In this document: piece by piece, positions 20,077-33,398 of the stretch
Position numbering within the stretch: position 1 is the first letter of the stretch
Layout: every line of letters begins with the position of its first letter
Source of the DNA: an uncultured Candidatus Saccharibacteria bacterium
GTDB taxonomy: Bacteria > Patescibacteriota > Saccharimonadia > Saccharimonadales > Saccharimonadaceae
Assembly: GCA_964476395.1 (NCBI GenBank)
Contig: CAYYYH010000001.1
Coordinates: 5,222-69,221 of the forward strand
Length of the DNA: 64,000 nucleotides
Reading direction: 5' to 3'
Notes under the pieces: model-generated
What the model saw: the letters and a program-made list of their open reading frames with translations, nothing else
Told to the model about the DNA's origin: nothing
Databases searched by the model: none
Position numbers and translations under genes: made by a program

Positions 20077-20136
20077 AATAACTCCTGCCCATCATTATAA
20101 CATAAGCATCTTAATTGTAAACAATTATTAAAACTA

Positions 20137-21612
20137 TTATTCATCCTCAATTGTCATATAACTATTTATTTTGTCTTTTGCTTCCTGCATTGACTCATCA
20201 AACGGCACCATCACATAAAGTGGTTCGTCCGCACCCATGCTATAAGTTGGTTCCATCAATCCATATCCATCAAGCCCAATTGATTCAATTTGCCATTTTG
20301 TTAAATCATCTAACTGCATTTGGATAAATGCCGCAATATCATCACGACTTAGGGTAGTTTCAAATGAATCCGCCGCAATACTTAAAATAGTAGGTAACTT
20401 CAAAAGGTAATCTCGAGAAGTAGATAGTTTGTTGATTATACTAGTAAGAACTTGCTGCTGGTTCTCACCCCGACGTCTATCTCCTCTATTGTAGGATTTT
20501 CTCTCACGTGCAAACCTTAAAGCACAATCACCATCTACAGTCTGTGTACCTACCACATAATAACAAACTTTTGATTCACCCTTATCTTCTCCTCTTGCTA
20601 TTACGCTAAAATGCATTGCTTTGTCTGAATAGATTTCTATCCCATCTAGCTCATCCACAACATCAACCACTGTTTCAAAACTCACCTTAATAGTATGATC
20701 TATCTTAATATCAAGAAAATCTTCGATCGTAGTTTTGCTCATATTGATTCCATACAATCCCGAATGTGACAATTTGTCCTTCAGGCCAGTAGTACCACGT
20801 AGTTGTACATAAGTATCGCGCGGGATCGATAACAATAGTATCTTTCTTTGTTTAGGATTTACCACCGCAATAATATTCACGTCCGTACGCGCTACGGTTT
20901 TTAATCCGCTCCTCGAATCGCTGCCAGAAATATAAACCATGAAAGGTTCTTCGGTTAAATTCTTCTCCGATATGCCTACACCTTCAGCCACTAATTCAAT
21001 TTCAAAAGTACCTATTACTCGCGTATCGTCTAAAACATCTGCCTCTTCCTTGGCCATTTCCAGCCGATCCGTTTCTAATACTATTGCATTTACTACATTG
21101 TTCTTTAGTACATCTGCCATAATATTTACATCATCATAAAACTCAGTTTTTACGCTTACAATCTCTTGCAAATGCTGTTCTGCTTCGGCCACCATATTAT
21201 CGATCTTAAGAAATCCTACATACTTTTGGTTTAACTGTTCAAGCTCGTTTATGTCACTTTCATTCATCACGATGACACTGTATTCTTTCATTTCCGGCTT
21301 TTGCTCAGTAATTCTATTCAAAAAATCATTAAATGCATCAGTAAAACGCAGGGCAAAACATGCTCCAATAATACATACCACCGCCAAAATCGTACAAATG
21401 ATTCTACCAGTAAGTGACGCTTTGTTTTTGATTGCCAGTACTACTAAATTTAATACAAATAGTAAAAGCAAAACTACAGCCACTATTATTATAATCCAAT
21501 TAGCAACAATGCCAGTATTCACTAATGAAAAAACTAATAGCACCGACGTCACTAATTGTACGGCTACCAAAATTGCGCCAATTACCCGCCAAATCAGAGT
21601 CCTTTTTTCCAT
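20137..21612 (-). CDS. LCP-family (CpsA-like) glycopolymer transferase
   Basis: Three N-terminal TMs, GSDSR, RTDVNI, SIPRDTYV, ARER, RGENQQ. Confidence 0.92.
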   Translation of the reverse strand: MEKRTLIWRVIGAILVAVQLVTSVLLVFSLVNTGIVANWIIIIVAVVLLLLFVLNLVVLAIKNKASLTGRIICTILAVVCIIGACFALRFTDAFNDFLNRITEQKPEMKEYSVIVMNESDINELEQLNQKYVGFLKIDNMVAEAEQHLQEIVSVKTEFYDDVNIMADVLKNNVVNAIVLETDRLEMAKEEADVLDDTRVIGTFEIELVAEGVGISEKNLTEEPFMVYISGSDSRSGLKTVARTDVNIIAVVNPKQRKILLLSIPRDTYVQLRGTTGLKDKLSHSGLYGINMSKTTIEDFLDIKIDHTIKVSFETVVDVVDELDGIEIYSDKAMHFSVIARGEDKGESKVCYYVVGTQTVDGDCALRFARERKSYNRGDRRRGENQQQVLTSIINKLSTSRDYLLKLPTILSIAADSFETTLSRDDIAAFIQMQLDDLTKWQIESIGLDGYGLMEPTYSMGADEPLYVMVPFDESMQEAKDKINSYMTIEDE

Positions 21613-21630
21613 CAAACTCCTTCCTTATTA

Positions 21631-22815
21631 TTAATCCCGCGCAAACAAATCACGCGTATAGACGATATCCGCCACATCACGAAGTTGATCTTCTAAGCGA
21701 TTTGCGAGAATAAGATCGCTACGTTCTGCAAAACTGTTAAAATCGTTTTCGACTTCAAATCCAGCAATTTTTTTCTCAGAGAGCGTTGGCTCGTAGATTA
21801 TTACTTCAATTCCCTCACCGCGAATATATTTAATAATATCCTGAATCGCAGCCGAACGGAAATTGTCTGAGCCACTTTTCATAGTTAGCCTGTACACTCC
21901 GACCGTCTTTGGCTTGCGTTTGCAAACATCCTTTGCAATAAATTCTTTACGAGTTTTATTCGCCTGAACAATAGCTCTAATAATATCCTGAGGCACATTA
22001 CGATAATTTGCAAGCAGTTGCTTCGTATCCTTAGGCAAACAGTATCCGCCATAGCCAAAAGATGGATTATTATAGTGTGCCCCAATACGAGGATCAAGAC
22101 AAACTCCTTCAATAATAGCTTTTGCATCAAGATTTTTAACCTGAGCATAAGTGTCTAGTTCATTGAAATAGGAAACGCGCAACGCAAGATAAGTGTTAGC
22201 AAATAGTTTCACGGCCTCAGCCTCGGTCGGTGGCATAAACAAAACTGGTACATCTTTATTCAGTGATGCTTTTTGCAAAAGTTTCGCGAATGTCTTAGCT
22301 TGCTTAGTCTCGTCACCAACAATAATTCTTGCCGGATAAAGATTATCATACAACGCTTTGCCCTCGCGCAAAAATTCCGGCGAAAAGAAAATGTTTTTAA
22401 TGCCATATTTTTCGCGGACTTTTTCGACATATCCAACCGGGATCGTAGATTTAATAACCGTCGTTATGTTGTCGTCCTTCATTCGAATGACTTTTTCGAT
22501 AATATCTTCAACAGCAGAAGTATCAAAAGTATTACTATCGTCATCGTAATTAGTTGGCGTAGCAATAATTACAAACTCAGCTCCTTTCATGGCGTCTTTA
22601 AAATCAATCGTTCCACGAAGATCTAGTTTTCGTTTTCCGCTTTTCGCTTCATCAAAATATTTTTCAATATATTCATCCTTAATTGGTGAAACAAAATCAT
22701 TGATTTTATCAACCTTTTCCTGATGTATCTCAAGCAAAACTACTTCATTTCTTTGGCTTAACAACGTGGCTAAAGACAAGCCAACATAGCCACCACCCGC
22801 TACAGTTATTTTCAT
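21631..22815 (-). CDS. ugd: UDP-glucose 6-dehydrogenase
   Basis: GGGYVG, FSPEFLREG, YNNPSFGYGGYCLPKD, SDNFR. Confidence 0.96.
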   Translation of the reverse strand: MKITVAGGGYVGLSLATLLSQRNEVVLLEIHQEKVDKINDFVSPIKDEYIEKYFDEAKSGKRKLDLRGTIDFKDAMKGAEFVIIATPTNYDDDSNTFDTSAVEDIIEKVIRMKDDNITTVIKSTIPVGYVEKVREKYGIKNIFFSPEFLREGKALYDNLYPARIIVGDETKQAKTFAKLLQKASLNKDVPVLFMPPTEAEAVKLFANTYLALRVSYFNELDTYAQVKNLDAKAIIEGVCLDPRIGAHYNNPSFGYGGYCLPKDTKQLLANYRNVPQDIIRAIVQANKTRKEFIAKDVCKRKPKTVGVYRLTMKSGSDNFRSAAIQDIIKYIRGEGIEVIIYEPTLSEKKIAGFEVENDFNSFAERSDLILANRLEDQLRDVADIVYTRDLFARD

Positions 22816-22845
22816 TTTATCTCCACTATTAATAACTCAAACTTA

Positions 22846-22874
22846 ATTATAAACTATTATCAAATCTCCGTCAA
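22846..22874 (-). promoter_or_regulatory. Promoter upstream of ugd
   Basis: TTGACG(22869-22874)-17-TATAAT(22846-22851). Confidence 0.75.
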
Positions 22875-22879
22875 CGAGT

Positions 22880-23920
22880 TTAAAAGTAAAATTCTTTGTA
22901 CCACTCGGCAAATTTTCGAAGACCATCACGAAGTGAAGTAGTAGGCTTAAAGCCAAAATCTTTTTCTAGCGCGCTGGTATCCGCATAAGTCACCGGCACA
23001 TCACCAGGCTGCATTGGCACGAGTTCCTTATGTGCTTCAAAATCATAATCTTCCGGTAACACTCCAGCCCGAATTAATTCTTCTTGCAAAATCTGCACGA
23101 AATCTAGCAAATTCTCCGGGCTCGAATTGCCTATATTATATACAGCATATGGTGCCAAAGGCAAACCGTCCTCACCGTCCTTTTTTTCCGGCGCCTTCGC
23201 CATCACTCGCATCACGCCCTCCACGATGTCGTCAATGTAAGTAAAATCTCGCTTACAATTTCCGAAATTAAATATCTGAATCTTCTCACCTTTAATTAAC
23301 TTATTGGTGAAGCCAAAATACGCCATGTCCGGACGCCCCGCCGGCCCATAGACCGTGAAGAAACGCAAACCCGTAGACGGTATATTATATAGTTTTGAAT
23401 ATGCATGCGCGAGAAGCTCATTGGATTTCTTGGTCGCCGCATATAGACTCACCGGATTATCCACCTTGTCTTCCGTATCAAACGGCACCTTCTTATTTCC
23501 ACCATATACGGACGATGACGAAGCATACACTAAATGCTCCACCGGATAGTGCCGACACGCTTCCAATATGTTATAAAAGCCAATCAAATTCGCCTCAATA
23601 TACGCATCCGGATGATCAATTGAATACCGCACCCCAGCCTGCGCCGCCAGATTCACCACAATCTCCGGATGATATTTTTCAAACAACTTGTTTACGGCTT
23701 CCTTATCCGCTAAATTTCCTTTAATGAATGCAAAATTCTTGTATTGCTCCAGATCCTTCAACCGATATTCCTTCAATTTCACATCATAGTAATCATTTAC
23801 ACTATCAAATCCAATCACCTTAGCCTTCGGGTTTTCTTCGCACACTCGCTTCACGAGCGCCCATCCGATAAACCCCGCCGCCCCCGTAATCAAAATTGTT
23901 TTACCATTAAAATCACTCAT
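22880..23920 (-). CDS. NAD-dependent epimerase, UDP-glucuronate 4-epimerase-like
   Basis: TGAAGFIG, LAAQAGVRYS, ASSSSVYG, YAATKK, GRPDMAYF, MQPGDV. Confidence 0.92.
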   Translation of the reverse strand: MSDFNGKTILITGAAGFIGWALVKRVCEENPKAKVIGFDSVNDYYDVKLKEYRLKDLEQYKNFAFIKGNLADKEAVNKLFEKYHPEIVVNLAAQAGVRYSIDHPDAYIEANLIGFYNILEACRHYPVEHLVYASSSSVYGGNKKVPFDTEDKVDNPVSLYAATKKSNELLAHAYSKLYNIPSTGLRFFTVYGPAGRPDMAYFGFTNKLIKGEKIQIFNFGNCKRDFTYIDDIVEGVMRVMAKAPEKKDGEDGLPLAPYAVYNIGNSSPENLLDFVQILQEELIRAGVLPEDYDFEAHKELVPMQPGDVPVTYADTSALEKDFGFKPTTSLRDGLRKFAEWYKEFYF

Positions 23921-23929
23921 ATTATTTCC

Positions 23930-24226
23930 TTATGATTCTTCCATACCTTCTTGGGTATACTCTGATACAATCTTTACCACCTGCTGAATAGTCGGGGAAC
24001 AGTTCTTGAAACTAACTTTTTCAAAGAACAAATCCCCAAATTCACGCATCGGTCCGACTATTAATGCATGAATGAACGATTGCGTTGCTCCAATCATGCC
24101 TTCAAAATCAAGAATTACCTCCTCACCATCAACTAACGCCGGCATAATTTGTTTAATCCTAATCCGCCTAGCTGTGTCTTTATTCTCCCCAAATTCCCCC
24201 GCCATTTTCGCCAATTTTATAATCAT
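23930..24226 (-). CDS. STAS-like (DUF4325-like) small protein
   Basis: VILDFEGM...SFIHAL pattern; overlaps stop of upstream HATPase gene. Confidence 0.75.
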   Translation of the reverse strand: MIIKLAKMAGEFGENKDTARRIRIKQIMPALVDGEEVILDFEGMIGATQSFIHALIVGPMREFGDLFFEKVSFKNCSPTIQQVVKIVSEYTQEGMEES

Positions 24227-25188
24227 ACGAACTTCACCTCCTTATATTTAGCTTTTTTGCGCTCGCGTATAGCTTTGCTATATGATACTTTAATTCTTTC
24301 CAAAATTTCGCTAAATGTTTCCGTATCAGTTAAAGTCAAATCAAGACCTATCAAAGTACCTCCAAAATTTGGCAAATCGTCATAAACTGCACATTTATCG
24401 GCAAATGGGTTCTCGTTTAACCGCGGACTATATTTTACTCTTTTATCAAATTTGTGCAATTTATAGGCTGCACTCCCGCTATATACTAGGAAGTAATTCC
24501 GGGTTGTTTTCACAATAGATTTAACGATATATAATCCCGCCCCGGCATTATCACCAGTACCACCCCTATATGCCGTTCCAGAAACGCCCGGCATCAATGC
24601 AAGTCGTATCGCATCAAGATCATCGACCGGATTATGGTATTTCTCAAGACTAGCCCTAAGACCGACTCCGGTATCACATATACCCACACTCAACTTATTT
24701 TTCTCGGCCGTATATTGCACAGCGACGAAGGCGCCATTCTGCGCGTTTGAATGTTCAATCACATTCCGAATCAATTCCCCCAAGACGTATTTAACAGTTT
24801 CAGACTTTTCCGGAGAAAGATGCAAAATCGGATGTAAATCCGCGATAAACCGCGACTGCTCCTGCTCGGTCTTAAGCTGTGTTATAGGGATGAAACGCCC
24901 CGTCTCCTCATGCTGATTATACTCGATCGGGCAATTACTCGATGAATAATCATATAAACCCATCCTGTCTAAATACATCGCCGCCCGAGGCACCCCAATA
25001 TCAATCGTTGTATTTTCCTTCCCGACCTCAGACGCCAAAGCCGCCGCAAAAGCCAAGCAAACGGGATGAACATATATCCAACTTTTCTCCGCGCAAATTT
25101 CAAGTTTACTACTATCAGACAGGTCATTAGTCCTCAAAAAATAGTTAATACTCTTTAGCTGGTCCACATTCGAAAACGATATTTTCAT
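24223..25188 (-). CDS. GHKL/HATPase_c-domain protein (anti-sigma/kinase-like)
   Basis: ELIRNVIEHS (N box), CDTGVG (G1), NAGAGLY (G2). Confidence 0.8.
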   Translation of the reverse strand: MKISFSNVDQLKSINYFLRTNDLSDSSKLEICAEKSWIYVHPVCLAFAAALASEVGKENTTIDIGVPRAAMYLDRMGLYDYSSSNCPIEYNQHEETGRFIPITQLKTEQEQSRFIADLHPILHLSPEKSETVKYVLGELIRNVIEHSNAQNGAFVAVQYTAEKNKLSVGICDTGVGLRASLEKYHNPVDDLDAIRLALMPGVSGTAYRGGTGDNAGAGLYIVKSIVKTTRNYFLVYSGSAAYKLHKFDKRVKYSPRLNENPFADKCAVYDDLPNFGGTLIGLDLTLTDTETFSEILERIKVSYSKAIRERKKAKYKEVKFV

Positions 25189-25194
25189 ATCTTC

Positions 25195-25223
25195 ATTATA
25201 ACGGTTAGACGTATTTTTGTCAA
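25195..25223 (-). promoter_or_regulatory. Consensus promoter of the HATPase-STAS pair
   Basis: TTGACA(25218-25223)-17-TATAAT(25195-25200), ATG 6 nt downstream. Confidence 0.85.
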
Positions 25224-25313
25224 TATACGCTTAACCGTAGATTAACAGGGGTAAAAAAGTTATAATTCTGCGGTTAGACGTATTTTCCCAAAAACACGCT
25301 TAACAGTAGATTA
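25202..25313. repeat. Two 43-bp imperfect direct repeats, each partly palindromic
   Basis: 25202-25244 and 25271-25313, 36/43 identical; CGGTTA-GA-CGTAT...ATACG-CT-TAACCG dyad. Confidence 0.85.
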
Positions 25314-25352
25314 TTGTCTCACTCTCCCCACGACGTTTTCACTAACCACCTC

Positions 25353-25381
25353 TTGACTTTTTCAACCACTCGCGCTATAAT
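25353..25381 (+). promoter_or_regulatory. Promoter with no downstream ORF (drives candidate sRNA)
   Basis: TTGACT-17-TATAAT. Confidence 0.8.
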
Positions 25382-25387
25382 AAAACC

Positions 25388-25439
25388 ATATTCGGGGATA
25401 CCCGTCCACCCTAATCGAAAGATTAGGGGACATTTTTTT
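25388..25439 (+). ncRNA. Candidate ~52-nt small RNA convergent on the PemK-like gene
   Basis: Promoter, hairpin CGGG-GATA-CCCG, terminator GTCC(A)CCCTAATC-GAAA-GATTAGGGGAC plus T7 reaching the PemK stop codon. Confidence 0.6.
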
Positions 25440-25833
25440 AGCAAAACAAATTGTGAAAACCAATCCTTATTGTTTGTAAATCAGAATCTGGCAATGCCCC
25501 CATTTTCTTATAAAGCCTAGAAACACTAAAAACTCGCGCCTGTGCAAGAACGGCATATTCCTGTCGATTTTTAAATACAAATGGAGCATACCAGCTGCCA
25601 TTATGCTCCTGTGAAGTTAGCGGGACGCCCATAAAACCATACTTGCTTAACTTTTTCAAAACAACGACAGGCCGAGCGAATGTTTCACTTTTCCCGTTAA
25701 TCTCTACACCGACGCTCTCTCCAACAGCGCACCAATATACATCTCCATCCTTAATATCACGCAGGACACCTTTTCCATGTAAATCCGACTTCACCACAAT
25801 CCACTCCTCAAAATGTTTTTCTTTTTCTTCCAT
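25438..25833 (-). CDS. PemK/MazF-like endoribonuclease toxin (no adjacent protein antitoxin)
   Basis: GDVYWCAVGESVGVEINGK...RPVVVLKK...GVPLTSQ...LAQARVFSVSRL; SD AAGGAG. Confidence 0.8.
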   Translation of the reverse strand: MEEKEKHFEEWIVVKSDLHGKGVLRDIKDGDVYWCAVGESVGVEINGKSETFARPVVVLKKLSKYGFMGVPLTSQEHNGSWYAPFVFKNRQEYAVLAQARVFSVSRLYKKMGALPDSDLQTIRIGFHNLFC

Positions 25834-25845
25834 AGAACTCCTTAA

Positions 25846-25923
25846 TTTATTTCCAACTACCCTACCACACCCACTCCGCTAAATCAACCCAACCAACACT
25901 CTTATGCCAATCCACCCCTTAAA
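25846..25923. repeat. 78-bp direct repeat, copy 1
   Basis: 72/78 identical to 28106-28183; C/A-rich on plus strand, non-palindromic. Confidence 0.92.
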
Positions 25924-25934
25924 TTTATGTCCGC

Positions 25935-27176
25935 TCAAACACCCAATTCCTCGCACTTTTCGAATTCCAAAGTCTCTTTCATTAAATTGTCACAATTATT
26001 TGAAATCTCTTTTCTAATCTCTTCGCCAAACTCGCTATACGAATTTGTTTCAGAAATCAAGCGATAAAATTTTGCAACATTGGGCTGTACTCTTTTTATG
26101 ACTTCAGGCATTTCACGGTATATTCCATCAGTCTTAAACAATTGCCAAAGCACTTTACTAAGTTCGTCAAGTTCTGCGTCTCCCACAACAGTAGGACTGA
26201 CTACTACGTAATACGCAAGCGTCCCAAACCAACACTCATACTTATCAAAACGTTTCTCCGAATCGTCAGTCACGGCAGCTTTTACATACTCGGAAATAGC
26301 GTTTAGCCACATTTTCTTACGCCACGTAGCGTGTTCGTTGGCATAGCCAAACAATAAAGGCTGTATAATTGAACATCCGACACCGACTTGCTCTATATTA
26401 TAAAAATCAATCATATGATTTGAAAAATTTAGAAACCCCTTCTGGGCATACGCCATGTCCTCACCAGATATTTGGCTAAGAAAAGATAGGTACAAAACGG
26501 CGTACATAGCAAAATCATCTCTTGCTAAAAATTCATAAGTTTTAGAATCATCCCACAGCATAGACCACTTCTTCTGCTGCATACTAACAGACCCACACCG
26601 CAGGTAAGCTAAGCGCAGCTGCTTCCTCGTGCCGATATCTATCAAATCCATAATCTTACTAGAATCATCTTCAGATAACGGTGTACCCGTATTTATCTTT
26701 ACGTTACCCATGTTGTCGAGTACTGGAGTACTAGACGGATTATTGTCATTGAACGACGGCACATCATAAAGCCAATTAAAAGCATTGTTTAGTGCTTCTG
26801 TTGAATGATATCCCAACCTTACAGAAAATACTATCATCCCAGATAATAAAACTAACAAAATAAACCTCCTAATTGGACCCCTTCGTTTTATGCTATTCAT
26901 AATCAAAAAAGCTAAACTTAAAAAAGCAATCATCAAAATCTGTTCCAACAATTCGGGTAAACCGACTACGGCGTCTGAAATAACCAAATAATCTACATCA
27001 ATAATCGCATTATCCTGCAACATAAAGATAGTGACCGGTATAAAAACGGCAATCACCACGCCTACATAAGCAAAGAATCCAGCAGAAATACCACTATGAT
27101 TGAAAAGATCATCTAGGTGTCCCCTCAGAAAATTTTTCACATCAATAAAACGTTCTTTTATATCATTTTTGGTCAT
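25935..27176 (-). CDS. Hypothetical membrane protein (413 aa)
   Basis: Three to four N-terminal hydrophobic segments followed by a soluble helical-looking domain; no family recognised. Confidence 0.7.
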   Translation of the reverse strand: MTKNDIKERFIDVKNFLRGHLDDLFNHSGISAGFFAYVGVVIAVFIPVTIFMLQDNAIIDVDYLVISDAVVGLPELLEQILMIAFLSLAFLIMNSIKRRGPIRRFILLVLLSGMIVFSVRLGYHSTEALNNAFNWLYDVPSFNDNNPSSTPVLDNMGNVKINTGTPLSEDDSSKIMDLIDIGTRKQLRLAYLRCGSVSMQQKKWSMLWDDSKTYEFLARDDFAMYAVLYLSFLSQISGEDMAYAQKGFLNFSNHMIDFYNIEQVGVGCSIIQPLLFGYANEHATWRKKMWLNAISEYVKAAVTDDSEKRFDKYECWFGTLAYYVVVSPTVVGDAELDELSKVLWQLFKTDGIYREMPEVIKRVQPNVAKFYRLISETNSYSEFGEEIRKEISNNCDNLMKETLEFEKCEELGV

Positions 27177-27231
27177 AGTTACAACTATTATACCATATCA
27201 TCATCTGGCAAAAATGCCACCCTAGCACCAA

Positions 27232-27807
27232 TCATTCTTCCTCGCCTATCACCAAATCATTTTCATAAATCAAATTGATAATTATCGCAGAAAAATCAAT
27301 CATTTGTTCAGCATCCTTCTTTGTTAAAAACTTAATCTCGTGGGTAGCATCGTTGCCTTTCTTTCGAATTATGTCTACCCACTTCTTTGAACCCCTCGGA
27401 ATATAATTCTCCTTATCAAGATAGTCGACGTAGTCCATGAAACTCAAACCTTCTTTTGCACCCAAATTTACACAGATGTTCATCAAAAGCTTCCTACAAC
27501 ACATTCCCGCAGCAGTAAAAGCATTCACGCTATAGGCCGCTCTGGCCTCTTCATATATTTTTTTCACTTCTAGCGGAATTGGTAAATCAAAATACTTTCC
27601 ATACTTCGGACCAGGAAATTGTTTAACCCCGGACAGCATATTAAAAAAAGTTGGCGACAAACAATTATGACAGATATAAATCTTAAGCTTTGGGTATTTA
27701 CTATTAAAATAGCCAACCTCTGAACATATTTCCCTACCACAATACGAACAGACATAAGTTTTACTATCTATTTTTTCCGAACCATACCAACCAGTAGAAT
27801 TACTCAT
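27232..27807 (-). CDS. DUF4145 (HEPN-like) protein with N-terminal Zn finger
   Basis: Start likely ATG 27807 after TGG-TATAAT; CSYC/CHNC, YEEARAAYSVNAFTAAGMCCRKLL, RKKGNDATH. Confidence 0.8.
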   Translation of the reverse strand: MSNSTGWYGSEKIDSKTYVCSYCGREICSEVGYFNSKYPKLKIYICHNCLSPTFFNMLSGVKQFPGPKYGKYFDLPIPLEVKKIYEEARAAYSVNAFTAAGMCCRKLLMNICVNLGAKEGLSFMDYVDYLDKENYIPRGSKKWVDIIRKKGNDATHEIKFLTKKDAEQMIDFSAIIINLIYENDLVIGEEE

Positions 27808-27824
27808 ATCACATATTATACCAC

Positions 27825-27880
27825 AAAAAAGAGGGCGATGTCCCGCATATATCCAATGCAGGTCCTGCCCCCCATCGCCC
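27825..27880 (-). ncRNA. Candidate ~55-nt structured small RNA downstream of CdiA-CT-like gene
   Basis: Promoter TTGACT(27906-27911)-16-TATAAT(27884-27889); outer stem GGGCGATG/CATCGCCC, inner hairpin CCTGCAT/ATGCGGG, then T6. Confidence 0.6.
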
Positions 27881-27894
27881 CTCATTATAGCGCA

Positions 27895-28110
27895 TCATTT
27901 CATAAAGTCAAGTATTTTTCCTCTCTTAGAAACAACCATCAAACGCTGTAAACTTTTTGATCGTTCGAATTCCCGCCGTAATTCATTTGTGCACTTTGAT
28001 TGATGACGCTTTGTCCTGCGTAAATCCACAATAACATAACGAGACTGTTTCACCGCTTTCTGAATCGTATTCGCCATGAGATATTTACTTTCTCCAATCG
28101 GTGATTTTAT
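27895..28110 (-). pseudogene. 5'-truncated CdiA C-terminal-like (tRNase-type) nuclease
   Basis: EIKSP...NTIQKAVKQSRYVIVDLRRT...LMVVSKRGKILDF matches C-terminal half of solo CdiA_C-like nucleases as I recall them; sequence upstream of EIK is the 78-bp repeat. Confidence 0.6.
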
Positions 28111-28183
28111 TTCCAACCACCCTACCACACCCACTCCGCTAAATCAACCCTGCCATCACTATTATGCCAATCCACCCCTAAAA
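28106..28183. repeat. 78-bp direct repeat, copy 2
   Basis: 72/78 identical to 25846-25923. Confidence 0.92.
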
Positions 28184-28198
28184 TCGAAACCCGAACCC

Positions 28199-28227
28199 TT
28201 GACTTTTTCAACCTCCCAACCTATAAT
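28199..28227 (+). promoter_or_regulatory. Promoter of abiF-like module
   Basis: TTGACT-17-TATAAT; shares CTTGACTTTTTCAACC-N7-CTATAATAAAA with 25352-25385. Confidence 0.85.
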
Positions 28228-28233
28228 AAAATC

Positions 28234-28287
28234 AACATCTCCTCCAGGCTTGGTTACGGCCAGCACACTTGGAGGAGTTCTGTTTGT
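28234..28287 (+). ncRNA. abiF-type structured leader RNA (candidate RNA antitoxin)
   Basis: Stem CTCCTCCAGG(28239-28248)/CTTGGAGGAG(28268-28277) enclosing TGGTT-AC-GGCCA hairpin, between promoter and Abi gene. Confidence 0.65.
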
Positions 28288-28295
28288 GAGGTAAA

Positions 28296-29192
28296 ATGCT
28301 TAAGGAATTCAAGACAATCGAAGATCAAATTGAGTTACTTAAATCCCGCGGCCTAAACATAGACGATGAGGATATTGCAAAGAAGTTCCTATTAGAAAAC
28401 AACTACTACCGCATAAGCGGCTATTCATTAACACTCCGCACAAACAATACTTTTCACGAAAATGCAACCTTTCAAAATATCATTGATATTTATAATTTCG
28501 ACCATGAACTACGAAACATATTGATAAAATATATTGAAATCATTGAAGTTAAGCTAAAATCGGTATTTGCATATGAGTTTTCAAAACAATATGGCCCAAC
28601 CAGTTATTTGGACCCTAATTATTTTTCCGACCCTATAAAGCACCAGGAAATCATACTAAAATCTGAAAAACTAAAAGTGCAACGACTCCCGCACGAAGCT
28701 TTTCTTAAACACTTTATTAACGAGTTACAAGAAACCGTACCACTATGGGCGTACGTCGAATTATTTTCCATTTCGGATATCTCTTTATTTTATAAAATAT
28801 CGCCAGAACAAATTAAAAAATCCGTCGTCTCAGCGTTCAATATAGAAATTGAAAAATATAAACTATTAGAAAGCTTTATGCATAGCATCACGATACTCCG
28901 AAATCTTTGCGCCCACGATAGTAGAATATTCAATCGACTATTCGAGCAAAAACCTCGACTTAGCACAATAGAAAAAGCTTGGCTAAGACAGAAAGAAGAT
29001 GGCAACATAGATAACGAACATCTTTTTAGCTTCGTACTAATAATGAAAAGACTACTCGACCCCACTCAGTTTACCCAAATGGTGAAAGACATAGAGAAAT
29101 TACATCAGGAAATTCCTTTTGTCAAAATGAGCCACTACGGTTTCCCTGACGATTGGCAAGAATTATTCACAAACACTTTGGAGGCTCCCTAA
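28296..29192 (+). CDS. Abi_2/AbiF-family HEPN abortive-infection RNase
   Basis: FKTIEDQIELLKSRGL, NYYRISGY, IYNFDHELR, PLWAYVE, HEPN motif RNLCAH. Confidence 0.9.
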   Translation: MLKEFKTIEDQIELLKSRGLNIDDEDIAKKFLLENNYYRISGYSLTLRTNNTFHENATFQNIIDIYNFDHELRNILIKYIEIIEVKLKSVFAYEFSKQYGPTSYLDPNYFSDPIKHQEIILKSEKLKVQRLPHEAFLKHFINELQETVPLWAYVELFSISDISLFYKISPEQIKKSVVSAFNIEIEKYKLLESFMHSITILRNLCAHDSRIFNRLFEQKPRLSTIEKAWLRQKEDGNIDNEHLFSFVLIMKRLLDPTQFTQMVKDIEKLHQEIPFVKMSHYGFPDDWQELFTNTLEAP

Positions 29193-29433
29193 GACGACTC
29201 AATACCCCATAATCCACCATCAACACGATGATCGATTTTGCAGACCTACAAACCCAAGAATTCGAAATACATCCAAAAGGAAATAGTCAAAAATGGCTCT
29301 TTTGCAATATGGATATCAAATATAAAACACTGTTAGATAGTATCTCGACTTAGTTTGGCCAATCACCCTTCCTCACCCATCACTCAACCATTTCTATGAA
29401 CCAAATTGCACTATCGCCACAGCAAACCAATAA

Positions 29434-29973
29434 TTATACTACTCTATTTACATACCCATCCGTCGCATCCTGTCTTGGGATAATCCGACCAGGATTGCCC
29501 ACAACAATAGAATTACTCGGCACATCAAAATTTACATAACAAAGCGGAGCAATCAAAACATTATCTCCTATCTCAATATTGCCAACTACTACAGCATTTG
29601 CACCTATCCAAACCTTATTCCCTATCTTCGGACAGCCTTTTCTTTTGCCACGGTTTTCCTGACCAATTACCACTCCGGTCGCAACATTGCAATTGTCCCC
29701 AATCCTTGTTTTTTCATTAATAATAATTCGCCCATTATGACCTATGTAAAACCCTTTACCTATATTGGTTCTATGCGGTATCTGTATAAATGTTTTCTTT
29801 TTCAACCTGTTTAAAATAAATCGATAATATGCTCTCGTCACACCCAGTTTGCAACTATTGCTTTTTCGAAAGACTATCATATACCGTAATCCGTCCGGTC
29901 GCAAAAGACGTTGAGTAATCGTCTCTCTATACTTGCCGTAGTATCTGTATATGTCAAACTTATATTTTTTCAT
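29434..29973 (-). CDS. Hexapeptide-repeat O-acetyltransferase (CysE/LacA-like)
   Basis: IGKGFYIGH, IGDNCN, CPKIGNKVWIGANAVVVG, VVGNPGRII. Confidence 0.88.
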   Translation of the reverse strand: MKKYKFDIYRYYGKYRETITQRLLRPDGLRYMIVFRKSNSCKLGVTRAYYRFILNRLKKKTFIQIPHRTNIGKGFYIGHNGRIIINEKTRIGDNCNVATGVVIGQENRGKRKGCPKIGNKVWIGANAVVVGNIEIGDNVLIAPLCYVNFDVPSNSIVVGNPGRIIPRQDATDGYVNRVV

Positions 29974-29975
29974 CC

Positions 29976-31502
29976 TTACCTCCTAATTCGAAATCTTAAA
30001 AATTTCTTTAATATGCGCCTTACGATATCATTAAAACTAGAATTGGCATGATACATCACAAAGAAAACTGCAAAGAAAATAATAGTCGATATGATCGCAT
30101 TCTTCAGCAGCTCCAAAATAGAATTATTAAACACTACGATGTTCGATAAACAGACGGCTATTAAGCTCATAACTACAGCAGACAACAAATACAGAAAATG
30201 TTGCTTAAAATATAAATTTGCTGATTCATTAAAAATCTTCCTATAAACGATAAATGGATACGAGCCGAAACATAATACTAGTGTACTAATAATCGTCCCC
30301 ATTATAATACCAGGAACCCCAAATACCTTCGCGCAAATAAGTGAAGCAATGATATTTACTACAGATTCGATAATCGGAATGAATCTATCCTCATAGAAAA
30401 TACCAGCTGCATTTTTAAAAGCTATCGTCGTCAGCTTCATCATTCTTAAATACAAATAAACTGATAACGTTCCGACCATCAACTCAGACATCAAGTATTC
30501 GTCACCAATCCATATTTTCACTAAAGGTTGCACGCACGCATAAAAAGTACAAGAAACATATGCGGCCAAAATAAAATTAATAGCCTGAATGCCCCTATAT
30601 GCGTGTAAATTGCTACGTTCATTTTTCATCACCAGCAGATTCCCAATACTCGCCGTAATACCAGAAAAAACGCTACTAATTAAATTGAAAATTGAAGATA
30701 CCACCAAAAAGTAATTATTATAAAAGCCGACCTGGGTCACACCAAACATCATCGATATCATGATATTATCTGTACCGTTAACAACAAATCCTCCAATCTG
30801 ATGGTAAAACATTGCGCGAATCTTTTTAGTTAAGCTTTTCTTTATTGAAATAGGAAGCGGCTTAGCCTTCTCAGTGATATAAGGATATTTCTTATTCGCT
30901 ATACCAGCAATAATGATATTTTCTAAACCAGTAAATAATACCTTTACCAAAAGGAATAAATAAAAATTCTTAGTAAGATATAATAGTAAAATTTGGACAA
31001 CATTCATTAAAACTATTTTGCCAATATGGACATATTTTGTAATGCGCTCCTTCTGATCAGCTATAATTATTGACCGCTTATATGAAAGCAAGTAAGAAAG
31101 AACGGCCTCCAAAAGAAAAAGAATATAAGCGATGTAGATGTTTACATCAATATCTAAGCTCCCAATAATTGAATGCAAAAAGGGGATAATAATAACTCCG
31201 ACAGCAGAAACAACGAAAGCAATTATCCTATAACATTTTTTGTAGAAATTCATGAGCGATTTCGTTAATTCGATATTCTTCTTATGAATCGGTTCATATA
31301 GGAAAAAAATAATAGTAGTACCTATTCCCAGTTCCGCAATTGACAAAATCGAAATAATGCTCGTAAGCAAACTATTTAACCCATTATATTCTGCTCCCAG
31401 AATATCAATAAAAATCTTTCGAGCAACAAAATTCACAATCAGATTGACCCCAAAAGCAAAAACAGACCAAAACACATTTTTTAAAGAATTCTCTGTCCTC
31501 AT
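29976..31502 (-). CDS. Wzx-type polysaccharide flippase
   Basis: About 12-14 TMs; ILSIAELGIG, GTDNIMIS, GNLLV, NIIASLI; inside cps locus. Confidence 0.88.
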   Translation of the reverse strand: MRTENSLKNVFWSVFAFGVNLIVNFVARKIFIDILGAEYNGLNSLLTSIISILSIAELGIGTTIIFFLYEPIHKKNIELTKSLMNFYKKCYRIIAFVVSAVGVIIIPFLHSIIGSLDIDVNIYIAYILFLLEAVLSYLLSYKRSIIIADQKERITKYVHIGKIVLMNVVQILLLYLTKNFYLFLLVKVLFTGLENIIIAGIANKKYPYITEKAKPLPISIKKSLTKKIRAMFYHQIGGFVVNGTDNIMISMMFGVTQVGFYNNYFLVVSSIFNLISSVFSGITASIGNLLVMKNERSNLHAYRGIQAINFILAAYVSCTFYACVQPLVKIWIGDEYLMSELMVGTLSVYLYLRMMKLTTIAFKNAAGIFYEDRFIPIIESVVNIIASLICAKVFGVPGIIMGTIISTLVLCFGSYPFIVYRKIFNESANLYFKQHFLYLLSAVVMSLIAVCLSNIVVFNNSILELLKNAIISTIIFFAVFFVMYHANSSFNDIVRRILKKFLRFRIRR

Positions 31503-32473
31503 TTTTTTATTCTACCATGTTTTATTATCCATAAAACTATTTTCTTTTTAAGCGAATAGTCTGGATAAAAACATGACAAATCCGCCTTATTAATTATTTT
31601 TCCTAATTCTTTCAAACTAGTTCTGCTCCCTCTTGTAAAAAAATGCTGTGCAATAAGTCTACAATAAACATCTAAAGCAATCGATCCATATGATGATACA
31701 ATCTCCTTATTATGTATTAGCGATGAACCTTTTATGATATTTTCAGAACGTTCCATTAAAGTATTCATCTTATAGTCTTTCGAGTCAGTCAATGAATTTC
31801 TATCATTAGAATGATTAGAAATATAAAAATAATTATTTACGCACATTATTTTTTTACATTTATCCAAACAAATATATGACGCAACTAAATCCTCATAGTT
31901 CAAAAACCCGACAAAGGCATTTTCTGTAACTATTTCTTTTCTAAAAATCTTAGTACTCATATTGCCCACTATTGTTCTACTACTAAAAATGCTCAGGTCA
32001 TATATACCTGAACGAATCTCTTTTCCAACAAAAGAACTTAAAACAATATCTGAAGGAAAGGCTTTCCGCTTAGCTATGCACGCATCAATATCAGGATATC
32101 TACAAAACAATTCATTAATCTCAGCAAAAGTATTTGGCCTAGATAGCCAATCGTCACTATCCAAAAAGAACAACAAATCACCCTTACTTTTTAAATACCC
32201 CAATCTCCGAGCGGGACCAGGTCCTTCGTGCTTTTTTCTATACACACGAATCTTATCATTGCCCAAACTATACTTTCTTAAAAAAGAATAAGTGCCATCA
32301 GACGATCCGTCGTCTATAAAAACCACTTCATACGCATTATACGCTTGACGTTCCACGCTTTCTAGAAGCCTTTGAACCTTATCTCTCGAGTTATAAGTTG
32401 GCACTATAAGAGAAATCAGATTATTCCTATATATACTATTATTGCTTTTAAGATTATTCATGCGTCTTTCCAT
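31499..32473 (-). CDS. GT2 glycosyltransferase
   Basis: SLIVPTYN, IDDGSSDGT, FLDSDD. Confidence 0.92.
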   Translation of the reverse strand: MERRMNNLKSNNSIYRNNLISLIVPTYNSRDKVQRLLESVERQAYNAYEVVFIDDGSSDGTYSFLRKYSLGNDKIRVYRKKHEGPGPARRLGYLKSKGDLLFFLDSDDWLSRPNTFAEINELFCRYPDIDACIAKRKAFPSDIVLSSFVGKEIRSGIYDLSIFSSRTIVGNMSTKIFRKEIVTENAFVGFLNYEDLVASYICLDKCKKIMCVNNYFYISNHSNDRNSLTDSKDYKMNTLMERSENIIKGSSLIHNKEIVSSYGSIALDVYCRLIAQHFFTRGSRTSLKELGKIINKADLSCFYPDYSLKKKIVLWIIKHGRIKK

Positions 32474-33398
32474 CTTGTTTTTTTCTTAAATCGACCAGCA
32501 ACGGCTCTAAATCAATATAATCACCCAGTTTTATATTCCAAACTTCATCTGCAAATGGCACCATTCCAGCACAAGTCGAAAAAGTCAATTCACCAAAGTA
32601 CAATTTACCATTAATTTCATACCAGTCTACCCTTAAATGAGGTATCCCCTTAGATAATATGGAGCTAAACATCTTCATCTTATCAAAATTTGCTGGTTTT
32701 TTCGGCTTATAATCTAACGGCTTATAATCTTTTCTTCTACATGTCGTAATATTCATATTCATATCGTAGAAACTCATTTTTGCTGTTTTGTGATCTTCTA
32801 GCCCTTCAGATATGTACATTATTTTTGGCTCACCATTAAAACAAAAGAATTTATAATCCCTCATCGATTTCTTATTATTATCCTCCATATACTTTTCAAT
32901 TATTATTCTCGGACGGACATTTTTATAAGGCCACTCCCGGTGTTGATAATAAAAATTATTCTTCAAAAGCGAATTAAATCTTTTTCTTATAGTTTTTATA
33001 TCTAGGTTCTTTTTATCCTTGCAAATTACTATTCCGCCAGAATCATGGGTGCATTTCATAACAAACCTATTCGGTAATTTTGAAAAATCAATGTCGTCAA
33101 ACCTTTCATATATACCAATCGTGGGTATTATATATTCTTTTCCAATTGCTTCGGCAACAATCAGTTTTGCCTCATACTTATCAACCATAGATGTATAGAT
33201 ATCTTTTCTATCATATAGTTTCAACCACTGTAATTTTTCATTAAACGTCCTAGGATTGTTCAAATCTAATTCTTTCCCGCACCATAACAAGTATTCCTTC
33301 TTAAGATATTTATCATCAGCCATCATATTATATAATCCAATTCTAGACAAAATACTGAATCGAACTCTTCTATTAAAAATACTCTTCAATTTATTCAT
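32454..33398 (-). CDS. TupA-like ATP-grasp ligase
   Basis: PRTFNEKLQWLK, VDKYEAK, KCTHDSG, PRIIIEKY, DYKFFCFNG, GELTF. Confidence 0.88.
   Translation of the reverse strand: MNKLKSIFNRRVRFSILSRIGLYNMMADDKYLKKEYLLWCGKELDLNNPRTFNEKLQWLKLYDRKDIYTSMVDKYEAKLIVAEAIGKEYIIPTIGIYERFDDIDFSKLPNRFVMKCTHDSGGIVICKDKKNLDIKTIRKRFNSLLKNNFYYQHREWPYKNVRPRIIIEKYMEDNNKKSMRDYKFFCFNGEPKIMYISEGLEDHKTAKMSFYDMNMNITTCRRKDYKPLDYKPKKPANFDKMKMFSSILSKGIPHLRVDWYEINGKLYFGELTFSTCAGMVPFADEVWNIKLGDYIDLEPLLVDLRKKQDGKTHE

What the first reader, a model, noticed from the sequence alone, without database searches (positions are those of the whole stretch)
25350..29192. Cluster of orphan RNase toxins, each paired with its own small structured RNA: candidate RNA-antitoxin island
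Seen: four predicted RNase-type genes in 4 kb (PemK/MazF-like, DUF4145/HEPN-like, CdiA-CT-like fragment, AbiF/HEPN), none with an adjacent protein antitoxin. Three separate 50-60 nt hairpin RNAs each follow a near-consensus TTGACT..TATAAT promoter (25388-25439 +, 27825-27880 -, 28234-28287 +). Two of these promoters share CTTGACTTTTTCAACC-N7-CTATAATAAAA. Established: type III TA systems neutralise RNase toxins with RNA, ToxN has a MazF/Kid fold, and AbiF is linked to a conserved upstream RNA. Inference: this is a battery of RNA-antitoxin modules spanning different nuclease folds in a CPR genome.
Basis: partly seen in the sequence, partly recalled or inferred. Interest (0 to 1): 0.88.

Follow-up and report, generated by a model that had tools for sequence, protein, structure and literature searches.

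The report
Nuclease genes paired with small RNAs
A 4-kb defence island in a tiny gut Saccharibacteria genome holds three unrelated toxin-type nuclease genes, each tied across many genomes to its own small structured RNA gene and to no antidote protein, so the RNAs are most likely the antidotes.

Summary
Four nuclease-type genes and three promoter-driven hairpin RNAs sit at the stated coordinates.

All three RNAs belong to conserved RNA families, and none matches Rfam.
- **sRNA1** faces the end of the PemK/MazF-like gene. An RNA of this kind was found beside 55 of 56 PemK homologues tested.
- **sRNA2** belongs to the CdiA-CT-like gene upstream of it, not to DUF4145. It followed 29 of 29 testable close homologues. 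Its -35 box lies inside the last codons of the nuclease gene.
- **sRNA3** is a leader RNA conserved upstream of all 27 AbiF homologues with readable upstream DNA (26 gut Firmicutes and other gut MAGs, one Saccharibacteria). It is not the Rfam abiF motif.

- The window's CdiA-CT gene is a dead N-terminal truncation that has lost its catalytic Asp, so sRNA2 is an orphan here.
- DUF4145 is a PD-T7-4-like single-gene defence protein with no RNA of its own.

RNA genes often survive without their nuclease; a nuclease lacking its RNA was seen once in 85 loci. Divergent CdiA-CT paralogues carry different RNAs that track protein clades. Both patterns fit RNA antidotes, but no function was tested. Only AbiF has an experimental precedent (RCd22).

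This scan has already noted the PemK-RNA and CdiA-C-RNA pairings on other DNA.

The parts
25353..25381 (+). Promoter of sRNA1 (TTGACT-17-TATAAT), part of repeat D3.
   Evidence: 11 of 12 matches. The -10 box sits at a fixed distance in all 27 family members.
25388..25439 (+). sRNA1. It has a 5' AUAUUCG, a near-invariant hairpin CGGGGAUACCCG, and a variable terminator hairpin plus U-tract that overlaps the PemK stop codon.
   Evidence: model R1, 87 bits. Present beside PemK in 36 of 36 and 19 of 20 loci.
25438..25833 (-). PemK/MazF-like RNase gene, 131 aa, intact, with no protein antitoxin gene beside it.
   Evidence: Pfam PF02452. R54-P55 and T73 are at least 96% conserved in 49 homologues. 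Found in 138 of 301 genomes of the genus.
25846..25924 (.). Repeat D1, copy A. This is the PemK upstream region, with a weak extended -10 (TGGTAGGGT) on the minus strand.
   Evidence: A related GGTAGGGT motif lies upstream of PemK in other genomes.
25935..27176 (-). 413-aa membrane protein of unknown family. It lies inside the 2.26-kb variable segment.
   Evidence: No Pfam, NCBIfam or PADLOC family. The segment is absent from a variant contig.
27232..27807 (-). DUF4145 protein resembling the PD-T7-4 single-gene phage defence. It has its own TGGTATAAT promoter directly before the ATG and no RNA partner.
   Evidence: Pfam 1.2e-14. PADLOC PD-T7-4 7.5e-8, near full length. The 26 extra codons of the 217-aa ORF are a read-through of sRNA2 (cluster artefact).
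27825..27880 (-). sRNA2. The consensus core is 27872-27825: stem GGGGGC/GCCCUC, internal loops AGGA and ACAUC, inner hairpin CCUGCAU-UGGAUAU-AUGCGGG, then U6. Its nuclease is dead here, so it is an orphan.
   Evidence: model R2, 75.5 bits. Present in 29 of 29 testable loci of close nuclease homologues.
27884..27911 (-). Promoter of sRNA2. The -35 TTGACT lies in the last codons of the CdiA_C gene and the -10 lies just past its stop codon.
   Evidence: The same layout is seen in 5 own-genome paralogues and in other genera.
27895..28134 (-). N-terminally truncated CdiA-CT-like PD-(D/E)xK nuclease remnant, 79 aa. It corresponds to residues 52-127 of full-length relatives and lacks the catalytic Asp.
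   Evidence: alignment A5.
28106..28184 (.). Repeat D1, copy B (92% identical to copy A). It replaces the 5' half of the CdiA_C gene.
   Evidence: A contig in run X7 joins 25845 directly to 28106.
28199..28227 (+). Promoter of the AbiF leader (repeat D3, 84% identical to the sRNA1 promoter over 37 nt).
28234..28287 (+). sRNA3, the AbiF leader RNA. It has a 10-bp outer stem, an internal loop with conserved GCACA, a variable inner hairpin and a U-rich tail, followed by the RBS.
   Evidence: 97.7% of cells paired, 19 double-change cells, 0 of 500 shuffles reaching this.
28296..29192 (+). AbiF/AbiD (Abi_2) gene, intact. Its closest relatives are in gut Firmicutes.
   Evidence: Pfam 1.8e-45. PADLOC AbiD 8.3e-83. 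for the relatives.

Best explanation
The stretch is a strain-variable defence island in an animal-gut Saccharibacteria genome. It carries three two-part cassettes, each made of a toxin-type nuclease and a small RNA.

1. **PemK/MazF-like RNase and sRNA1.** The RNase gene is read from a weak promoter. A strongly promoted 52-nt two-hairpin RNA faces it, and the RNA's terminator abuts the toxin stop codon.
2. **CdiA-CT(Bp1026b)-type PD-(D/E)xK nuclease and sRNA2.** The nuclease gene is truncated and dead in this genome. Its last codons and stop codon contain the promoter of a roughly 48-nt hairpin RNA. That hairpin also terminates the nuclease mRNA.
3. **AbiF and its leader.** The gene is preceded by promoter, structured leader, U-tract and RBS.

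Shown here: the RNA families, their structures, and their near-obligate linkage to the nucleases.

Inferred: each RNA keeps its nuclease harmless.
- For sRNA2 and the AbiF leader, the likely route is direct binding of the protein, as in type III systems. The leader would also attenuate transcription.
- For sRNA1, the route is either direct binding or pairing with the complementary 3' end of the PemK mRNA, as in type I systems.

DUF4145 and the 413-aa membrane protein are separate passengers.
For: **RNA families and structure**
- sRNA1: 95% of cells paired, 27 double-change cells, 0 of 500 shuffles as good.
- sRNA2: 93.5% paired, 14 double-change cells, 0 of 500. A conserved U-G pair argues for selection on RNA rather than DNA.
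- sRNA3: 97.7% paired, 19 double-change cells, 0 of 500.

**Linkage**
- R1 matched beside 36 of 36 PemK loci.
- In a further 20 low-identity PemK loci, R1 matched at the expected place in 19, three of them only weakly (E 0.13-0.16) and one of those (L195) with no RNA visible by eye. The one locus without a match, L207, carries a longer variant RNA.
- R2 matched in 29 of 29 testable nuclease loci.
- The leader lies upstream of all 27 AbiF homologues of 46-78% identity that have upstream sequence.

**Asymmetry expected of poison and antidote**
- About 12 of 27 sRNA1 loci have a truncated or missing PemK.
- About 10 of 33 sRNA2 loci have no nuclease. Some of these sit after dnaJ, valS or a flavodoxin gene.

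**Not leaders of downstream genes**
- Genes after sRNA2 vary in identity and strand.

**Co-diversification**
- Five more paralogues in this genome, and homologues in 8 other genera, keep the nested promoter plus hairpin but with different RNAs. The RNA types follow protein clades, not taxonomy.

**Active-site conservation**
- PemK R54-P55 and T73 are conserved. The nuclease family keeps D47, E56 and K58.

**Fold**
- The AlphaFold2 model has pLDDT 93. Its best Foldseek match is 4g6v_A, TM 0.71.

**Promoter strength**
- The RNA promoters match 11 of 12 consensus positions. The toxin -10 is TAGGGT.

**Precedent**
- AbiF of C. difficile is neutralised by its upstream RNA, RCd22 (PMC12373285).
Against: - No toxicity, rescue or binding experiment exists for any of these three pairs.
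- No discrete small transcripts were seen. Metatranscriptome contigs cover the PemK and DUF4145 genes at low depth. Only one 168-nt contig, from a relative, spans sRNA1, and DNA carry-over cannot be excluded.
- None of the modules has the tandem repeats that define type III antitoxins.
- The sRNA2 module is non-functional in this genome.
- The inner hairpins of sRNA1 and sRNA2 hardly vary, so covariation supports mainly the terminator stems.
- sRNA1 shows no extra complementarity to the PemK translation start (-14.3 against -13.0 kcal/mol for shuffles).
Confidence: 0.65

Rival explanations
1. For the PemK module alone: sRNA1 is a type I-style cis-antisense RNA. The PemK mRNA reads through the hairpins, pairs with sRNA1 over about 50 nt, and is degraded, for example by RNase III. 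No RNA-protein contact is involved.
For: The two genes converge and sRNA1 ends on the PemK stop codon in every locus. On the toxin strand the hairpin is not followed by a U-tract, so read-through is likely. The layout resembles the B. subtilis txpA/RatA pair (own knowledge). Plasmid pVir of C. jejuni carries a 34%-identical PemK homologue, again with a convergent promoter and hairpins. pVir is also reported to hold a validated RNA antitoxin, cjrA (PMC7826846 citing Shen 2016).
Against: A cis-antisense RNA is complementary whatever its sequence, yet the 5' AUAUUCG and hairpin 1 stay near-invariant while the protein drops to 45-65% identity. That points to recognition of the RNA itself. I could not confirm that cjrA/cjpT is the PemK locus of pVir.
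Confidence: 0.3
2. The RNAs are needed for, or direct, the nuclease activity. They could be a cofactor, a substrate that is processed, or a specificity element, rather than an inhibitor.
For: Near-obligate linkage and co-diversification fit any specific RNA-protein partnership, not only inhibition.
Against: RNA genes often persist after the nuclease has been lost, whereas a nuclease without its RNA was seen once in 85 loci. A cofactor would have no use on its own. The RNA promoter is much stronger than the toxin promoter, which fits a labile antidote made in excess.
Confidence: 0.1
3. The hairpins are only intrinsic terminators or 3'-end stabilisers of the nuclease mRNAs (or an attenuator, in the case of AbiF). 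The promoter-like boxes are incidental, so there is no trans-acting RNA.
For: All three elements end in a stem plus a U-rich tract. Covariation is concentrated in those stems.
Against: Ordinary terminators are not 90-98% identical across species whose flanking gene is 55-70% identical. The -35 and -10 boxes keep their spacing in every paralogue, even at 30% protein identity. Orphan copies keep their promoters, and one locus has two promoter-bearing copies in tandem.
Confidence: 0.1
4. The CdiA-CT-like protein is a free-standing homing-type DNA endonuclease, and the conserved 'RNA' is its DNA target or insertion site.
For: The fold is PD-(D/E)xK. Weak structural matches include homing endonucleases. 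Copies are scattered and some 'sites' are empty.
Against: The only strong structural and sequence relative is a tRNase toxin (4g6v). Conserved G-U pairs and compensatory changes indicate selection on RNA pairing. The promoter and U-tract are conserved.
Confidence: 0.03

Closest known systems
AbiF(Cd)/RCd22 of Clostridioides difficile (Saunier et al. 2025, PLoS Genet, PMC12373285)
   Same: An Abi_2 (AbiD/F) HEPN protein is preceded on the same strand by its own promoter, a structured RNA, a terminator-like U-tract and then the RBS. In that system the RNA both attenuates transcription and neutralises the protein by direct binding.
   Different: RCd22 carries two copies of the Rfam abiF motif (RF03085). 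The leader here is a single bipartite hairpin of a different, unregistered family. RF03085 matches neither the window nor 17 homologous loci. No experiment exists for this subfamily.
Type III toxin-antitoxin systems (ToxIN, AbiQ/antiQ, CptIN, TenpIN)
   Same: An endoribonuclease toxin has no protein antitoxin. The RNA is made in excess and would bind the protein. ToxN has a Kid/MazF-like fold (own knowledge).
   Different: Type III antitoxins are tandem arrays of 34-50-nt repeats upstream of the toxin, cut into units by the toxin. Here each RNA is single-copy with its own promoter, and lies convergent to the toxin gene (PemK) or nested at its 3' end (CdiA-CT-like). The toxins belong to other families.
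Type I systems with convergent, 3'-overlapping antitoxin RNAs (B. subtilis txpA/RatA, bsrG/SR4); possibly cjrA/cjpT of C. jejuni pVir
   Same: Toxin gene and small RNA gene converge and share the terminator region. The RNA promoter is strong and the toxin promoter is weak.
   Different: Classical type I toxins are small membrane peptides, not a 131-aa RNase. sRNA1 is conserved in sequence beyond what antisense pairing requires. I could not check whether the pVir PemK homologue is CjpT.
CdiA-CT(II)/CdiI of Burkholderia pseudomallei 1026b (PDB 4G6V)
   Same: Full-length relatives of the window's remnant share the PD-(D/E)xK tRNase domain: Pfam CdiA_C up to 1e-16, Foldseek TM 0.71.
   Different: The proteins here are stand-alone, about 127 aa, with no delivery domains. 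The slot after the toxin, where cdiI would lie, holds an RNA gene instead of an immunity protein gene.
MazEF/PemIK type II toxin-antitoxin systems
   Same: The toxin belongs to the PemK/MazF family and keeps the catalytic Arg-Pro and Thr positions.
   Different: No MazE/PemI-like gene lies upstream or downstream in the window, nor among the recurring neighbour ORFs of the 27 sRNA1 loci examined. A convergent RNA gene was found beside 55 of 56 PemK homologues.

Membership tests
Type III toxin-antitoxin (ToxIN/CptIN/TenpIN) | The antitoxin is a tandem array of direct repeats upstream of the toxin on the same strand. | tested here: not met
   No tandem repeats occur around any of the genes. The RNAs are single-copy and lie convergent, downstream, or as a single leader hairpin.
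Type III toxin-antitoxin (ToxIN/CptIN/TenpIN) | The toxin is a ToxN/AbiQ-family endoribonuclease. | tested here: not met
   Pfam returns only PemK_toxin, CdiA_C and Abi_2.
Type III toxin-antitoxin (ToxIN/CptIN/TenpIN) | The RNA inhibits the toxin protein by direct binding. | not testable with these tools
   This needs co-expression, pull-down or a structure.
Type I toxin-antitoxin | The antitoxin RNA is complementary to the toxin mRNA. | tested here: inconclusive
   sRNA1 abuts the PemK stop codon, so any 3' UTR would be its complement. The mRNA 3' end is unknown. sRNA2 and sRNA3 lie on the same strand as their genes, so the feature is not met for them.
Type I toxin-antitoxin | The toxin is a small hydrophobic peptide. 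| tested here: not met
   The toxins are a 131-aa RNase and a roughly 127-aa nuclease.
AbiF with abiF-motif RNA (RF03085) | The protein is an Abi_2/AbiD/F family member. | tested here: met
   Pfam 1.8e-45. PADLOC AbiD 8.3e-83.
AbiF with abiF-motif RNA (RF03085) | The upstream RNA matches the abiF covariance model. | tested here: not met
   No match at E up to 10 on 28180-28310. No match near this gene in the whole genome. No match in 17 homologous loci.
AbiF with abiF-motif RNA (RF03085) | The order is promoter, structured RNA, terminator-like tract, RBS, abiF. | tested here: met
   Seen in the window and in all 27 homologous loci that have upstream sequence.
CdiA-CT/CdiI (Bp1026b type) | The protein has a PD-(D/E)xK tRNase domain homologous to 4G6V chain A. 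| tested here: met
   Met for full-length relatives: Pfam, PDB profile E 2.8e-4, Foldseek TM 0.71. The window copy keeps only the C-terminal 76 residues and lacks the catalytic Asp.
CdiA-CT/CdiI (Bp1026b type) | The toxin is the C-terminal tip of a large CdiA, and a CdiI immunity protein gene follows. | tested here: not met
   The genes are stand-alone, 126-148 aa. No recurrent ORF lies downstream and an RNA gene occupies that slot.
MazEF/PemIK type II | The toxin is of the MazF/PemK family. | tested here: met
   PF02452, E 7.5e-8. Catalytic-position residues are conserved.
MazEF/PemIK type II | An adjacent protein antitoxin gene is present. | tested here: not met
   No such ORF is present in the window. 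No neighbouring ORF family recurs across the 27 sRNA1 loci examined.
PD-T7-4 (single-gene phage defence) | The protein shows full-length similarity to the PD-T7-4 profile. | tested here: met
   DUF4145 protein: PADLOC PDLC04109, E 7.5e-8, residues 12-184 against profile positions 8-181 of 211. The score is moderate.

The most novel reading that the evidence does not exclude
In these very small genomes, RNA has taken over the antidote or immunity role for several unrelated toxin folds.

The most novel element is the large, horizontally moving family of stand-alone CdiA-CT-type PD-(D/E)xK nucleases. It was found in 218 of 301 genomes of the genus, with up to 8 matches per genome. In this family the immunity function would be provided by a small RNA gene nested in the 3' end of the toxin gene, with its -35 box inside conserved codons.

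That would be a new architectural class of toxin-antitoxin system. It would stand alongside a MazF family restrained by a convergent RNA and an AbiF subfamily with a new leader RNA.
Probability: 0.5. Interest if true: 0.85.

Novelty: new variant of a known kind. Interest (0 to 1): 0.72.

Why it matters
If the RNAs are antidotes, two classical protein-neutralised toxin families would turn out to have RNA-neutralised branches. These are MazF/PemK, normally paired with MazE, and CdiA-CT tRNases, normally paired with CdiI. Their gene layouts fit none of the textbook toxin-antitoxin types.

The nested layout, with an RNA promoter inside the toxin's last codons and a shared terminator, is a compact way to make the antidote in excess.

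The modules are abundant in uncultivated Saccharibacteria. They cluster in strain-variable islands next to recognised phage-defence genes (AbiD/F and PD-T7-4-like). They are therefore likely to matter for phage defence or gene stabilisation in organisms with almost no characterised immunity.

The AbiF leader is shared with many gut Firmicutes. This extends the recently shown AbiF-RNA principle to a second RNA family.

All three pairs are small enough to test directly in E. coli.

Tried and rejected
- **Rfam.** Searches of 20000-34000 at E up to 1 and of 28180-28310 at E up to 10 found no family for any of the three RNAs. RF03085 also failed on the whole genome and on 17 AbiF loci.
- **sRNA2 as partner or leader of DUF4145.** Rejected. 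In relatives sRNA2 follows the CdiA_C gene, and the genes after it differ in identity and strand.
- **A 'protein family' downstream of sRNA2 in five loci.** This was an artefact of ORFs reading through the RNA. The 217-aa form of the DUF4145 ORF is the same artefact.
- **Pairing of sRNA1 with the PemK ribosome-binding region.** No signal beyond shuffled controls.
- **R1 on the PemK loci of C. jejuni pVir and a Nitratiruptor plasmid.** No match, although pVir has a convergent promoter plus hairpins.
- **The Shen 2016 cjrA/cjpT paper.** It is not held, so I could not check whether CjpT is the PemK homologue.
- **RNA-run search with 27800-28300.** It listed nothing. The reads laid gave only thin, non-discrete coverage.
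- **Direct PDB sequence searches with the window's PemK and truncated CdiA_C proteins.** Nothing useful came back. Only the family profile reached 4g6v.
- **Tree script.** It mis-framed six minus-strand loci. Four were dropped, and two (L153, L155) stayed in as long, mostly unfilled rows that form their own branch. The clade and RNA-type statement rests on the remaining 20 rows.

Full report
**Setting.** The window lies on contig 1 of a 677-kb genome in 23 contigs, 98.9% complete. That size is typical of candidate phyla radiation (CPR) bacteria. One related record is titled Candidatus Saccharibacteria. The DNA is held almost entirely by four animal-gut metagenome runs.

The island sits between an epimerase-type gene with a DUF4325/HATPase pair on one side and polysaccharide-synthesis genes on the other.

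**The observation.** Pfam confirms the four genes:
- PemK_toxin at 25438-25833(-)
- DUF4145 at 27232-27885(-)
- CdiA_C at 27895-28134(-)
- Abi_2 at 28296-29192(+)

Three promoters match 11 of 12 consensus positions and lie where stated. The hairpins fold as described. The shared promoter motif occurs only twice in the genome. No Rfam family matches the region.

**sRNA1 and PemK.**
- A blastn search with 71 bases around sRNA1 hit 71 of 301 genomes of the same genus.
- The aligned copies share four features:
  - a -10 box at fixed distance;
  - a 5' AUAUUCG;
  - an almost invariant hairpin CGGGGAUACCCG;
  - a terminator hairpin that varies by compensatory changes.
- On that alignment 95% of cells are paired, with 27 double-change cells, and 0 of 500 shuffles reach this.
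- The PemK-like protein is found in 138 of 301 genomes, with up to 8 matches per genome.
- Covariance model R1 matched in all 36 PemK-centred loci tested. The RNA was always convergent and abutted the stop codon.
- In 20 further loci of 41-50% protein identity, R1 matched at the expected place in 19. Three of these matches were weak (E 0.13-0.16).
- By eye, the locus with no match (L207) carries a longer variant RNA. One weak-match locus (L195) shows no RNA.
- In the opposite direction, about a third of sRNA1 loci have a truncated or frameshifted PemK and three have none.
- No neighbouring ORF family recurs apart from PemK itself.
- The positions equivalent to the MazF catalytic Arg-Pro and Thr are at least 96% conserved in 49 sequences.
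- The toxin's likely promoter is a weak extended -10 (TGGTAGGGT) inside repeat D1, and related motifs occur upstream of PemK in other genomes.
- sRNA1 shows no special complementarity to the PemK translation start.

**sRNA2 and the CdiA-CT-like nuclease.**
- sRNA2 hit 67 of 301 genomes of the genus. It is 90-98% identical in places where the adjacent gene is only 55-70% identical.
- Its consensus is GAGGGC-AGGA-CCUGCAU-UGGAUAU-AUGCGGG-ACACC-GCCCUC-U6.
- The outer stem covaries, with 14 double-change cells and 0 of 500 shuffles as good. The inner hairpin is nearly invariant and keeps a U-G pair.
- In relatives the RNA lies directly after a protein of 126-145 aa on the same strand.
- That protein matches Pfam CdiA_C over the whole profile, down to E 1e-16.
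- It carries a PD...ExK motif.
- It matches the CdiA-CT chain of PDB 4G6V by profile, E 2.8e-4.
- It matches the same chain by fold: model pLDDT 93, Foldseek TM 0.71, E 5e-7.
- R2 matched in 29 of 30 loci of the closest homologues. The thirtieth locus runs off its contig.
- The window's gene corresponds only to residues 52-127 and lacks the catalytic Asp. It is a dead remnant and sRNA2 is an orphan here.
- About 10 of 33 sRNA2 loci have no nuclease gene. Some follow dnaJ, valS or a flavodoxin gene.
- Genes downstream of sRNA2 vary in identity and strand. sRNA2 is therefore neither a leader RNA nor a partner of DUF4145.

**A wider family of nuclease-RNA pairs.**
- The nuclease family is found in 218 of 301 genomes of the genus, with more than 500 matches.
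- Five further paralogues in this genome (29-36% identity) each show the same layout: TTGACA or TTGACT inside the codons of the conserved C-terminal IDI/LDF motif, a -10 box at the stop codon, and a 50-60-nt hairpin plus U-tract.
- Their RNA sequences differ from sRNA2.
- The same layout recurs in 8 other genera of the class.
- RNA types group with protein clades rather than with taxonomy. One type, with core GCACGGNGCAGUAUGCNCCUACCGC, occurs in three taxonomic families.
- The sequence families R1 and R2 themselves were found only in this genus among 150 genomes sampled across the class.

**sRNA3 and AbiF.**
- The closest AbiF homologues (46-63% identity) are in gut Lachnospiraceae, Faecalibacterium, Ruminococcus and similar organisms, plus one Saccharibacteria fragment at 78%.
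- All 27 with upstream sequence carry the same leader: promoter, AACAUCUCC, an 8-10-bp stem, a variable inner hairpin, conserved GCACACUUG, GUUUUGUUU and then the RBS.
- On that alignment 97.7% of cells are paired, with 19 double-change cells, and 0 of 500 shuffles reach this.
- The leader is not the Rfam abiF motif.
- A 2025 paper shows that a C. difficile AbiF is toxic. It is held in check by its upstream RNA, RCd22, through both termination and direct binding (PMC12373285). That is the only experimental precedent bearing on this island.

**Other genes and the repeats.**
- The DUF4145 protein resembles the single-gene defence PD-T7-4 (PADLOC E 7.5e-8, near full length). AbiF matches PADLOC AbiD at E 8e-83.
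- The 79-nt repeat D1 is the PemK upstream region. Its second copy replaces the 5' half of the CdiA-CT gene.
- A contig in another sample joins 25845 directly to 28106. A variant without the 2.26-kb segment between the D1 copies therefore exists.
- In relative G031 the D1-D3 block precedes sRNA1, and PemK is reduced to its two ends.
- The region is therefore a recombining cassette site.
- PemK-RNA and CdiA-CT-RNA modules also lie side by side in other genomes.

**Expression.** Two metatranscriptome runs contain contigs over the PemK gene, and one of them (X13) also a contig over DUF4145. Neither has contigs over the membrane-protein gene. One 168-nt contig from a relative spans sRNA1. Depth is low, the data are assembled contigs, and DNA carry-over cannot be excluded. 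This is weak evidence, and no small-RNA data exist.

**Reading.**
- The pairing of each RNA with its nuclease is firmly shown.
- Four observations favour an antidote role for the RNAs:
  - no protein antitoxin is present;
  - orphan RNAs are common, while a nuclease without its RNA was seen once in 85 loci;
  - RNA promoters are strong and toxin promoters weak;
  - RNA types diversify together with the protein clades.
- The AbiF precedent points the same way.
- The antidote role remains an inference.
- For sRNA2, which lies on the same strand as its gene, direct protein binding is the simplest mechanism.
- For sRNA1, antisense action on the mRNA 3' end and direct binding are both open.

**Earlier notes of this scan.** The PemK-RNA pairing had already been described on several other genomes and the CdiA-C-RNA pairing on one. 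I re-tested both independently here. One earlier lead pointed to C. jejuni pVir. I confirmed a 34%-identical PemK homologue there with a convergent promoter and hairpins. I could not confirm that it is the published cjrA/cjpT pair.

Noticed in passing
window 25195-25313: Two 43-nt dyad-symmetric repeats (84% identical, 69 nt apart) overlap a perfect 12-of-12 promoter for the HATPase/DUF4325 gene pair. The region folds far better than shuffles on both strands (z -3.4 and -4.6).
   Followed up: no
window 23930-25188 (-): A DUF4325 (STAS-like) gene and a HATPase_c_2 gene form a pair next to the island. The HATPase protein gives a partial PADLOC match to DrmA (E 1.8e-11), so this may be another defence-type module.
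   Followed up: no
window 25352-25388 and 28198-28234: The promoters of sRNA1 and of the AbiF leader are 84% identical over 37 nt, including the spacer. This motif occurs only at these two places in the genome. In relative G031 the same block, preceded by D1, drives sRNA1. The likely cause is local promoter-block duplication or gene conversion, but the mechanism is unexplained.
   Followed up: partly
G000:C5:34094-34160 (locus L089/L095): A weak second R2 match (28 bits) lies divergent from another CdiA_C paralogue, which also has its own different downstream RNA. It is followed by a second promoter and the hisS gene.
   Followed up: partly
window 27807-27823 and several PemK loci (e.g. L116, L119, L121, L123): The -10 boxes sit only about 7 nt before the ATG. 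This suggests leaderless mRNAs for DUF4145 and for some PemK genes.
   Followed up: no
L056-L186 (AbiF homologues): The window's AbiF is closer to genes of gut Firmicutes (56-63% identity) than to anything found in other Saccharibacteria, apart from one fragment. The leader RNA came along with it. This suggests transfer of the whole RNA-gene cassette between phyla sharing the gut habitat.
   Followed up: partly
L068 (G211:C14:10310-10429): Two sRNA2 copies lie in tandem 74 nt apart. Each has its own TGTGGTATAAT-type promoter, and no nuclease gene is nearby.
   Followed up: no
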